Positions 54,315 through 54,705 of a stretch of 64,000 bases of DNA are shown here, one piece after another. Position 1 is the first letter of the stretch. Each line of letters opens with the position of its first letter. The notes under the pieces are model-generated. The model worked only from the letters and a program-made list of their open reading frames with translations. It was not told where the DNA came from and searched no databases. Both the position numbers and the translations under genes were made by a program. Source of the DNA: the human T2T-CHM13v2.0 reference genome, Homo sapiens; assembly GCF_009914755.1 (NCBI RefSeq), contig NC_060930.1; one strand, written 5' to 3'.

Positions 54315-54705
54315 ACCAGGTGCGGTGGCTCACGCCTATAATCCCTGCACTTTGGGAGGCCGAGGTGGGCGAATCACCTGAGGTTGGGAGTTTGAGGCCG
54401 ACATGGTGAAACCCTGTCTTTACTAAAAACACAGTGTCAGGCACTGTATTTTTAGTAGAGACGGGGTTTTGCCATGTTATCAGTTCAAATGTCTCAGGTT
54501 CTGACATACAGTGACTGTATTTTTAGTAAAGACTAGTAAAGTGCCTGGTGGCAGGTGCCTGTAGTCCCAGCTACTCAGGGACTGAGGCAGGAGAATCGCT
54601 TGAACCCAAGAGGCAGAGGGTGCAGTGAGCCGAGATCACGCCATTGCATTCCAGCCTGGGCGACATAGCGAGACCCTGTTTCAAAAAAAGGAGAAAGAAA
54701 GAAAG
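54315..54705 (+). mobile_element. AluS with rearranged middle
   Basis: TSD AAAAAAGCAGATTC; linker and start of right arm replaced by foreign sequence 54434-54547. Confidence 0.92.

What the first reader, a model, noticed from the sequence alone, without database searches (positions are those of the whole stretch)
54434..54547. Alu middle replaced by a mosaic of locally templated fragments (multi-switch repair scar)
Seen: between TACTAAAAACACA and the resumed right arm lie ~115 bp of copied pieces. CAGTGTCAG (54432-54440) and CAGTGACTGTA (54509-54519) are reverse complements of unique sequence at 53659-53667 and 53651-53661. 54445-54478 matches the neighbouring antisense Alu 53388-53421 at 32/34. 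ATCAGTTCAAATGTCTCAGG (54479-54498) is a 20/20 copy of unique 52997-53016. TTTTTAGTAAAGAC is an inverted copy of this Alu's own left arm including its private GTCTTTACT variant. GTGCCTG (54541-54547) inverts 54438-54444. Established: such patchworks are the signature of polymerase-theta templated insertion or MMBIR/FoSTeS. Inference: a single germline break was repaired through six or more template switches within 1.5 kb, possibly aided by pairing of the inverted Alus at 53.0-53.5 and 54.3-54.7 kb.
Basis: partly seen in the sequence, partly recalled or inferred. Interest (0 to 1): 0.8.

Follow-up and report, generated by a model that had tools for sequence, protein, structure and literature searches.

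The report
Templated patchwork insertion inside an Alu
An old Alu repeat in a TRERF1 intron had its short middle linker replaced by about 110 bases stitched together from copies of nearby DNA, which is a clear but ordinary kind of scar left when a DNA polymerase hops between templates during replication or repair.

Summary
One sense Alu (54313-54705) is framed by a perfect 14/14 target-site duplication. About 16 nt of its linker are replaced by about 107-112 nt (54434-54545).

**Well-supported copies**
- 54479-54498 is a 20/20 copy of 52997-53016. This 20-mer occurs only at these two places in the 3.1-Gb genome.
- 54520-54533 (14/14, or 19/20 over 54514-54533) is an inverted copy of the Alu's own left-arm end.
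- 53651-53667 was copied in inverted orientation twice (11/11 and 15/17).
- 54445-54478 is a 34-nt antisense Alu piece.

**Weak or unsupported points**
- The 7-mer is at chance level, and so is the 9-mer taken alone.
- The neighbouring Alu is not identifiable as donor of the 34-mer: five window Alus tie at 32/34.
- About 25-30 nt have no assignable template.

**Interpretation**
- Copies differ from their templates by 1/60 to 3/94, while the Alu is about 12% diverged. The event is therefore much younger than the Alu insertion, which argues against a retrotransposition-coupled origin.
- Best reading: synthesis-dependent serial template switching of the MMBIR/FoSTeS type. Tract lengths and template distances (up to 1.4 kb) fit poorly with canonical polymerase-theta scars.
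- Single event versus stepwise origin cannot be tested here.
- This is a new example of a known kind, of modest interest.

The parts
54299..54312 (+). Left target-site duplication AAAAAAGCAGATTC of the Alu
   Evidence: 14/14 identical to 54706-54719 (D13)
54313..54433 (+). Alu left arm, ending ...CTAAAAACACA. It carries a private 9-nt deletion, a private T in GTCTTTACT and a private C at 54430.
   Evidence: Alignment to five window Alus; Rfam SRP-like hit at 54315-54422
54432..54448 (.). Piece A: inverted copy of 53651-53667. It is 9/9 exact over 54432-54440 and 15/17 ungapped to 54448. It overlaps the Alu end by 2 nt (CA).
54445..54478 (.). Piece B: 34-nt antisense-oriented Alu left-arm end carrying the TTTTGCC variant. 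The donor is an Alu other than the host (own arm only 28/34). The neighbour 53388-53421 is the nearest candidate at 32/34.
54479..54498 (.). Piece C: direct 20/20 copy of unique sequence 52997-53016
   Evidence: D8; only two places in the genome
54499..54508 (.). Piece D: TTCTGACATA, with no template above chance
   Evidence: Best local match is an 8-mer, which is chance level
54509..54519 (.). Piece E: inverted 11/11 copy of 53651-53661. It is the centre of the palindrome ATACAGT-G-ACTGTAT (54506-54520).
54514..54533 (.). Piece F: inverted copy of the host Alu's own left-arm end plus the first junction bases (54416-54435). It is 14/14 exact and 19/20 overall.
   Evidence: (I10)
54534..54545 (.). 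Piece G: TAGTAAAGTGCC, unassigned. It holds an 8-nt repeat of 54524-54531, and 54540-54547 is the reverse complement of 54438-54445.
   Evidence: 8-mers are at chance level
54546..54705 (+). Alu right arm and A-rich tail
   Evidence: Alignment; Rfam SRP-like hit at 54536-54684
54706..54719 (+). Right target-site duplication
   Evidence: D13
52997..53016 (+). Template of piece C, 1417-1436 nt left of the insertion point, intact
53388..53421 (+). Candidate template of piece B, in the neighbouring antisense Alu. It is the exact homologue of the host Alu's 54400-54433.
   Evidence: Not unique: four other window Alus tie at 32/34.
53651..53667 (+). Template used twice in inverted orientation (pieces A and E), intact. 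It lies 2 nt before the RefSeq silencer feature 53669-53848.
54401..54477 (.). 36-bp quasi-palindrome (86% complementary, 5-nt loop TCAGG) created by the insertion
   Evidence: I4. DNA fold -34.8 kcal/mol, z -7.5. RNA fold of the transcribed strand -56 kcal/mol, z -7.3.

Best explanation
Long after this Alu had inserted, DNA synthesis was interrupted in its A-rich linker in the germline of a human ancestor. The free 3' end was then extended in short bursts on several nearby templates before synthesis returned to the Alu.

**Templates used**
- 53651-53667, twice, inverted.
- An antisense Alu left arm, most simply the neighbour at 53388-53421, direct.
- Unique sequence 52997-53016, direct.
- The Alu's own left-arm end, inverted (a snap-back).

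The result replaced about 16 nt of linker with about 110 nt of patchwork and created a 36-bp hairpin-forming quasi-palindrome.

**Pathway.** The best fit is microhomology-primed serial template switching at a stalled or collapsed replication fork (FoSTeS/MMBIR type).

**Shown versus inferred**
- Shown: the pieces, their templates, the intact donors, and an event age well below the Alu's age.
- Inferred: the order of switches, that it was one event, that it was replicative, and which polymerase acted.
For: **One Alu with a derived middle.** The target-site duplication is 14/14, and the alignment shows the missing linker.

**Copies, not moved fragments.** All donor sites are still in place, and the two uses of 53651-53667 overlap by 3 nt.

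**Local origin is proven for the 20-mer.** It has 2 places in 3.1 Gb, 1482 nt apart, and 0 in the control.

**Overall excess of local matches.** 73/107 bases lie in local matches of 11 nt or more, and 0 of 500 shuffles reach that.

**Both orientations are present** (D3, D8, I10-I12).

**Junction overlaps.** They are 2 nt (own Alu|A), 4 nt (A|B) and 5-6 nt (E|F).

**Piece F postdates the first switch.** It includes ACTGT, the complement of non-Alu bases added at the first junction, so it was copied after that junction existed.

**Different donors for B and F.** B carries G and TTTTGCC where F and the own arm carry A and TTTCACC. B is 28/34 to the own arm and 32/34 to the neighbour.

**The event is much younger than the Alu.** Copies differ from templates by 1/60 (A, C, E, F) or 3/94 (with B). 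The Alu is 30/250 from the majority of five other Alus. P(<=1 in 60) is <=0.005 even at the single-lineage rate.

**Tracts and distances.** Tracts are 11-34 nt and templates lie 0-1436 nt away. This matches the 'several templates, larger insertions' described for human MMBIR-linked insertions (PMC8421209, passages). It exceeds the polymerase-theta range (PMC7165422, abstract and passages).

**One-sided templates.** All four robust templates lie on one side of the break. A fork gives this more naturally than a two-ended break does.
Against: - One junction (B|C) has no microhomology.
- About 25-30 nt (54441-54444, 54499-54508, 54534-54545) have no template above chance.
- The donor of the 34-mer is ambiguous.
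- One-sidedness of four templates is weak statistically (about 1 in 8).
- Nothing here shows a fork rather than a double-strand break, or one event rather than two.
- The insert is AT-rich relative to its flanks: GC 0.37 against 0.42-0.43 in unique flanks and 0.55-0.59 in the Alu arms. PMC7165422 reports this trait for polymerase-theta insertions.
Confidence: 0.6

Rival explanations
1. Polymerase-theta-mediated end joining of a two-ended double-strand break in the linker. Repeated aborted rounds of synthesis in cis (snap-back) and in trans built up the insert until a stable microhomology allowed joining.
For: - The insert mixes direct and inverted copies, has short junction overlaps of 2-6 nt, and contains snap-back palindromes.
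- The insert is AT-rich relative to its flanks (GC 0.37 vs 0.42-0.59), as reported for such insertions (PMC7165422).
- The paper notes that longer insertions arise from more than one round of synthesis.
Against: - PMC7165422 (abstract and passages) describes insertions of 3-30 bp, synthesis tracts rarely above 10 bp, and templates in the DNA flanking the break.
- Here the insert is about 110 nt and the tracts are 11, 14-20, 20 and 34 nt.
- Three of the four templates lie 766-1436 nt away, and all are on one side.
Confidence: 0.2
2. Stepwise origin. A first template switch created the long quasi-palindrome (54401-54477). That palindrome then acted as a fragile site or switch hotspot and collected further pieces in one or more later events.
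For: - The structure folds strongly (z -7.5), and quasi-palindromes are known to promote switching (titles and abstracts listed).
- There are two diverged copies of one 25-nt unit, 54438-54462 and 54509-54533, at 22/25 (D4).
- B lacks the host arm's private A while F has it. This could reflect different times rather than different donors.
Against: - The second unit is explained exactly (25/25) by two local templates, without invoking copying from the first unit.
- Divergence per piece does not differ detectably: 2/34, 0/20, 0/11, 1/20.
- Several rare events at one site are less parsimonious than one complex event.
Confidence: 0.15
3. The patchwork arose during Alu integration itself, through template jumping by the LINE-1 reverse transcriptase or during second-strand synthesis.
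For: An intact target-site duplication frames the whole structure. The linker is a plausible pause site (inference only).
Against: - Copies are 1/60 to 3/94 from their templates, while the Alu has about 12% private change. P is <=0.005 for equal age.
- The templates are genomic and non-Alu, up to 1.4 kb away.
- There is no poly-A or second duplication around the insert.
Confidence: 0.02
4. Assembly artefact, or an unrelated insertion whose matches are coincidental.
For: None specific. The short 7-9-nt matches are indeed at chance level.
Against: - The 20-mer is unique to these two sites genome-wide.
- 0 of 500 shuffles reach the observed local coverage.
- No other copy of the 62-nt stretch 54479-54540 exists in the genome. 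That search was limited in sensitivity.
Confidence: 0.02

Closest known systems
MMBIR/FoSTeS templated insertions at rearrangement breakpoints, and 'MMB-TI' events (PMC8421209, abstract and passages read)
   Same: The insert is made of copies of nearby sequence with donors intact. It uses several templates in both orientations and has short microhomologies at some junctions.
   Different: - There is no copy-number change or larger rearrangement; synthesis returned to the same Alu.
- Three of four templates lie well beyond the 100-bp search radius used to define MMB-TIs.
- One junction is blunt.
Polymerase-theta templated insertions (TINS; PMC7165422, abstract and passages read)
   Same: The logic is the same: prime on a microhomology, copy a little, dissociate, try again. 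Both direct and inverted copies occur, and the insert is AT-rich.
   Different: The insert is about 110 nt against 3-30 bp. Tracts reach 34 nt against rarely more than 10. Templates lie up to 1.4 kb away against the immediate flanks.
Short-range template-switch mutations in human and great-ape genomes (PMC5453318, listing and abstract only; PMC7954356, passages and one supplement searched)
   Same: Piece F alone is a textbook case: a short inverted copy of sequence a few bases upstream, creating a hairpin.
   Different: - Those events are single switch-and-return copies with a median copied length of 12 nt. This one chains five or more tracts.
- The locus is not among the 4,016 listed events, using my recalled coordinate conversion.
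Simple snap-back insertions in other Alu linkers of the same genome (L010, L011/L012, C20:60466104)
   Same: An Alu whose linker carries an inverted copy of its own left-arm end. In L011, 16 nt replace part of the linker.
   Different: Those have one short tract from the Alu itself. Here there are also tracts from three other sites.
Inverted-Alu fragility (PMC10164571, passages read; PMC3215922, listing and abstract only)
   Same: An inverted Alu pair flanks the event, and the pair is predicted to anneal in single-stranded DNA.
   Different: No fold-back inversion or dicentric-type product is present. At 75-87% identity and a spacer of about 0.8-1.4 kb, the pair would be nearly inert in duplex DNA by the yeast data. 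No causal link was tested.

Membership tests
MMBIR/FoSTeS-type templated insertion | Inserted tracts are copies of nearby sequence, and the donors remain intact | tested here: met
MMBIR/FoSTeS-type templated insertion | Iterative switches using several templates in either orientation | tested here: met
   Five robust tracts from four sites, three inverted and two direct
MMBIR/FoSTeS-type templated insertion | Microhomology at junctions | tested here: inconclusive
   2, 4 and 5-6 nt at three junctions, 0 nt at B|C, and three junctions unassignable
MMBIR/FoSTeS-type templated insertion | Inverted template within 100 bp of the insertion (operational MMBSearch criterion, PMC8421209) | tested here: inconclusive
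   Met by piece F only (template 0-17 nt from the insertion point). Pieces A/E, B and C have templates 766-1436 nt away.
MMBIR/FoSTeS-type templated insertion | Origin at a stalled or collapsed replication fork | not testable with these tools
   The only hint is that all four templates lie on one side of the break
Polymerase-theta templated insertion (TINS) | Insertion of 3-30 bp | tested here: not met
   About 107-112 nt, against the range in PMC7165422
Polymerase-theta templated insertion (TINS) | Individual synthesis tracts are short, rarely above 10 bp | tested here: not met
   Tracts of 11, 14-20, 20 and 34 nt
Polymerase-theta templated insertion (TINS) | Templates lie in the DNA immediately flanking the break | tested here: not met
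   Three of four templates are 766-1436 nt away
Polymerase-theta templated insertion (TINS) | Insert is AT-rich relative to its flanks | tested here: met
   GC 0.374 against 0.415-0.433 (unique flanks) and 0.545-0.591 (Alu arms)
Short-range template-switch mutation (four-point model) | A single reverse-complement copy of nearby sequence, with return to the original template | tested here: not met
   Fits piece F alone. The whole insert needs five or more tracts, including direct copies.
Retrotransposition-coupled chimera (reverse-transcriptase template jump or twin priming) | The chimera is the same age as the element | tested here: not met
   1/60 to 3/94 differences against about 12% for the Alu; P<=0.005
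Known microRNA precursor families (Rfam) | Score at or above the family gathering threshold | tested here: not met
   The best hit on the hairpin is mir-3170 at 34.2 bits against a threshold of 98. All hits are sub-threshold.

The most novel reading that the evidence does not exclude
A single replication accident, within roughly the last few million years of the human lineage, made six or more template jumps. All jumps went to sequences within 1.5 kb on one side of a stalled 3' end, as expected if helicase and polymerase had uncoupled and exposed that stretch as single strands. In one step it created a 36-bp hairpin that is transcribed within the TRERF1 intron. That hairpin could be raw material for a new small-RNA or RNA-editing substrate. 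Alu linkers would then serve as genome-wide built-in reporters of such events, because the Alu consensus gives the 'before' state without needing an outgroup.
Probability: 0.07. Interest if true: 0.5.

Novelty: new member of a known kind. Interest (0 to 1): 0.3.

Why it matters
Complex templated insertions are mostly catalogued in tumours, in patients with rearrangements, or as single short switches between ape genomes. This is a clean germline example, present in the reference assembly, with at least five tracts and templates up to 1.4 kb away.

It can be read from one genome because the Alu consensus supplies the ancestral state. That suggests a practical screen: look for Alus with aberrant linkers. 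A first scan found nine exact-motif loci with fold-backs in the linker.

The event itself lies in an intron, and nothing here shows that it has any function.

Tried and rejected
- **Whole-genome DNA searches** with 126-, 62- and 80-nt queries found no second copy of the composite. They also missed the known 20/20 match, so they cannot exclude distant donors shorter than about 35 nt. The exact-pattern search settled the 20-mer only.
- **Piece D (54499-54508).** A donor could not be sought genome-wide. It is too short for the DNA search, and I did not type a second stretch next to the first.
- **Minimum-segment tiling** with 6-mers explains everything in 12 segments. It would do so for any sequence, so I discarded it as uninformative.
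- **Piece D plus the end of C as a copy of the 'empty site' of the neighbouring Alu cluster.** I compared GGTTCTGA with GGTTTTCTGA at 53524-53533. This rests on a 6-mer and needs a 2-nt slip, so it is left as unexplained.
- **Published lists.** I looked for the locus in the event table of PMC7954356. None of the 4,016 rows starts with 4235-4240 except chr6:42368118-42368135. In PMC9435742 there were no occurrences, but files 1 and 13-22 were not searched. My conversion from this assembly to GRCh38 coordinates rests on recalled gene coordinates, so these blanks mean little.
- **Rfam** gives only sub-threshold microRNA-like hits on the hairpin.
- **Separating CpG from non-CpG change in the Alu** failed, because the majority of five old Alus has almost no CpG left. 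The age ratio is therefore rough.

Full report
**What is there.** The interval lies in an intron of TRERF1, according to the hub annotation.
- A sense-oriented Alu occupies 54313-54705. It is framed by a perfect 14-nt target-site duplication, AAAAAAGCAGATTC, at 54299-54312 and 54706-54719 (family D13). It is therefore one retrotransposition event, not two abutting fragments.
- I aligned it with five other Alus of the window. Its left arm runs normally to ...CTAAAAACACA (54433), and its right arm is certainly back by TGGTGGC (54546).
- About 16 nt of A-rich linker and right-arm start that all five others share are missing. In their place lie about 107-112 nt.

All six are literally present at the stated coordinates. 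Their weight differs.
- *The 20-mer (54479-54498 = 52997-53016).* This is decisive. At up to one mismatch it has exactly two places in the 3.1-Gb genome, these two, 1482 nt apart. The reversed-pattern control has none.
- *Calibration of short matches.* For random 41-nt window segments compared with their +-1.6-kb flanks, the longest exact match is 9 nt or more in 1341 of 2000, 11 nt or more in 300 of 2000, and 20 nt or more in 22 of 2000. A lone 9-mer is therefore expected by chance, and an 11-mer is only suggestive.
- *Template 53651-53667.* The 9-mer and the 11-mer fall on one contiguous template, on the same strand and in register. Product 54432-54448 aligns ungapped at 15/17, and 54509-54519 at 11/11. 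The two insert regions are themselves 22/25 alike (D4). Given that, the independent information is six further bases upstream of the first region that continue the template exactly. I take this template as real.
- *GTGCCTG.* It occurs 27 times in the window. Even as the 8-mer AGTGCCTG/CAGGCACT, it carries no weight.
- *Overall coverage.* 73 of the 107 insert bases lie in exact matches of 11 nt or more to the surrounding 4 kb. Dinucleotide shuffles give a mean of 2.3 and a maximum of 33, and 0 of 500 reach 73.
- *Tiling with 6-mers.* Any sequence can be tiled from 5 kb of both strands. For that reason I leave 54441-54444, 54499-54508 and 54534-54545 unassigned.

**The Alu-derived pieces.**
- *Piece B (54445-54478).* This is the end of an Alu left arm in antisense orientation.
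  - The neighbouring antisense Alu (53388-53421) matches 32/34, but so do four other window Alus (5 of 17 other sites have two mismatches).
  - Two distant Alus match 37/37.
  - What B shares with the neighbour is the TTTTGCC variant. That variant is also seen in the Alus at 20405 and 24986. The two mismatches are private to the neighbour.
  - The host Alu's own arm matches only 28/34, so B was not a snap-back on the host arm.
  - The neighbour is the most economical donor because the proven donor of the next piece lies 372 nt from it. Identity alone does not show this.
- *Piece F (54514-54533).* This is the reverse complement of the host arm's end (54416-54435) at 19/20 (I10).
  - It includes the host's T in GTCTTTACT.
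  - It also includes ACTGT, whose first two bases complement the non-Alu GT at the first junction. F was therefore copied after that junction existed.
  - The same 15-mer occurs in the Alu at 56222-56236, but that match stops before these bases.
  - The single F mismatch lies opposite 54430. There the host has a private C, while all five other Alus, B and F have the T state. The simplest reading is a later substitution in the host arm.

**Anatomy.** Reading the + strand:
- host arm, then A (inverted 53667 to 53651, overlapping the Alu by CA);
- B (direct, overlapping A by TGTA);
- C (direct, blunt junction);
- D (10 nt, unassigned);
- E (inverted 53661 to 53651);
- F (inverted host arm, overlapping E by ACTGT(A));
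- G (about 12 nt, unassigned, with an 8-nt repeat of 54524-54531);
- host right arm.

The second 25-nt unit (54509-54533) is explained 25/25 by E plus F. The product contains a 36-bp quasi-palindrome, 54401-54436/54442-77, at 86% with a 5-nt loop (I4). It also contains a perfect 7+7 palindrome at 54506-54520. As single-stranded DNA, 54396-54548 folds at -34.8 kcal/mol, z = -7.5, and 0 of 200 shuffles fold as well.

**Copy rather than cut-and-paste, and the timing.**
- All donors are intact, and the two uses of 53651-53667 overlap by three template bases. The pieces were therefore synthesised, not ligated in as fragments.
- Copies differ from their templates at 1 of 60 positions (A, C, E, F), or 3 of 94 with B against the neighbour. 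The host Alu differs from the majority of the five other Alus at 30 of 250 well-supported columns, and the neighbour at 28 of 255.
- If the insert were as old as the Alu, at most one difference in 60 would have P <= 0.005, even using the single-lineage rate as the pairwise rate.
- The event therefore postdates Alu integration by a wide margin, at very roughly a tenth of the Alu's age. This argues against template jumping by the LINE-1 reverse transcriptase at integration.
- The ratio is rough. A majority of five is not a subfamily consensus, and CpG effects could not be separated.

**Mechanism.**
- A 3' end that left the linker and was extended in short bursts on nearby templates, in both orientations, before returning is the common core of FoSTeS/MMBIR and of polymerase-theta end joining.
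- Against the canonical polymerase-theta scar: PMC7165422 (abstract and passages) describes 3-30-bp insertions, tracts rarely above 10 bp, and templates in the flanking DNA. Here the insert is about 110 nt, the tracts are 11-34 nt, and three of the four templates are 766-1436 nt away.
- In favour of polymerase theta: the insert is AT-rich (GC 0.37 against 0.42-0.59), and that paper notes that multiple rounds can lengthen insertions.
- Human MMBIR-linked insertions are described as larger and multi-template (PMC8421209, passages). The operational definition there uses inverted templates within 100 bp, which only F meets.
- All four robust templates lie on one side of the break. This fits a fork better than a symmetrically resected two-ended break, whether single-stranded DNA lay ahead of an uncoupled leading strand or behind the fork. 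With four sites the statistical support is weak.
- I therefore favour replicative serial switching (0.6) over polymerase-theta joining (0.2).
- A stepwise history, in which the first quasi-palindrome provoked later events, cannot be excluded (0.15).

**The inverted Alus.**
- The antisense cluster at 53045-53519 and the host Alu are 75-87% complementary over 85-108-nt stretches, with 771-1418 nt between them (I1-I3).
- As single-stranded DNA, 53207-54705 is predicted to pair the two Alus along both arms, with the new hairpin as a side branch (no shuffle control at this length).
- Passages of PMC10164571 say that such spacing and divergence nearly abolish fragility in duplex DNA. In long single-stranded regions, inverted Alus with at least 75% homology and kilobase spacers still interact.

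**Analogues in the same genome.**
- I scanned for an exact 13-nt left-arm-end motif followed within 15 nt by its reverse complement. It finds nine loci, and zero in the control.
- Of the four I read, three are Alus whose linker carries a short inverted copy of their own left-arm end: L011 and its duplicate L012 (16 nt) and L010. L009 is a 135-nt-armed inverted pair.
- By its matched string, C20:60466104 looks like L010.
- Simple snap-backs in Alu linkers therefore recur, and this locus is a more elaborate case.

**Known or new.**
- Mechanism and class are known.
- I found no sign that this locus is described, but the check is weak (recalled coordinate conversion; some supplements not searched).
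- Rfam gives only sub-threshold microRNA-like hits on the hairpin. The best is 34 bits against a threshold of 98.
- The transcribed strand folds at -56 kcal/mol, z = -7.3. Whether that matters is open.

**Verdict.** This is a real, well-resolved multi-template insertion scar, younger than its host Alu, and a new example of a known kind. The decisive data are primate orthologues and human population assemblies, which were not available here.

Noticed in passing
window 53045-53519: The neighbouring antisense 'Alu' is a composite: right arm, linker, partial left arm, then again right arm, linker, full left arm. The two right arms are 85% identical at 173-nt spacing (53080-53188 and 53253-53361). 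The join sits in the CCAGCCTGG..CAACATGG stretch that left and right arms share. This looks like an old Alu-Alu recombination or an internal duplication.
   Followed up: partly
L011 and L012 (G000:C15:18188156-18188190 and 19365133-19365167), L010 (C12:122443389-122443423), C20:60466104-60466144: Other Alus whose linker carries a short inverted copy of their own left-arm end. These are simple snap-back template switches. Nine exact-motif loci were found genome-wide against zero in the control, and two pairs look like segmental duplicates.
   Followed up: partly
window 54401-54477: The insertion created a 36-bp hairpin inside a transcribed intron. Rfam gives several sub-threshold microRNA-precursor-like hits (mir-3170, mir-1303 and others), none near its gathering score.
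   Followed up: partly
window 53651-53667 and 53669-53848: The template used twice ends 2 nt before the RefSeq 'silencer' feature. No connection was examined.
   Followed up: no
window 54385-54400 (alignment A1 columns 108-116): The host Alu has a private 9-nt deletion (GACCAGCCT in the other Alus) in its left arm. It appears unrelated to the linker event.
   Followed up: no
GRCh38 chr6:42368118-42368135 (possibly around window 36 kb by a recalled offset): The great-ape template-switch table of PMC7954356 lists one gold-standard event (name 3170) in what I recall to be the TRERF1 interval. It may fall in this window near the RefSeq enhancer at 36216-36305. It was not located in the sequence.
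   Followed up: no
window 54499-54506 and 53524-53533: After the 20-mer copy, the insert continues GGTTCTGA. This resembles GGTTTTCTGA on the far side of the neighbouring Alu cluster, as if the template had lacked that cluster. The resemblance rests on a 6-mer and a 2-nt slip, so it is unexplained and possibly chance.
   Followed up: partly
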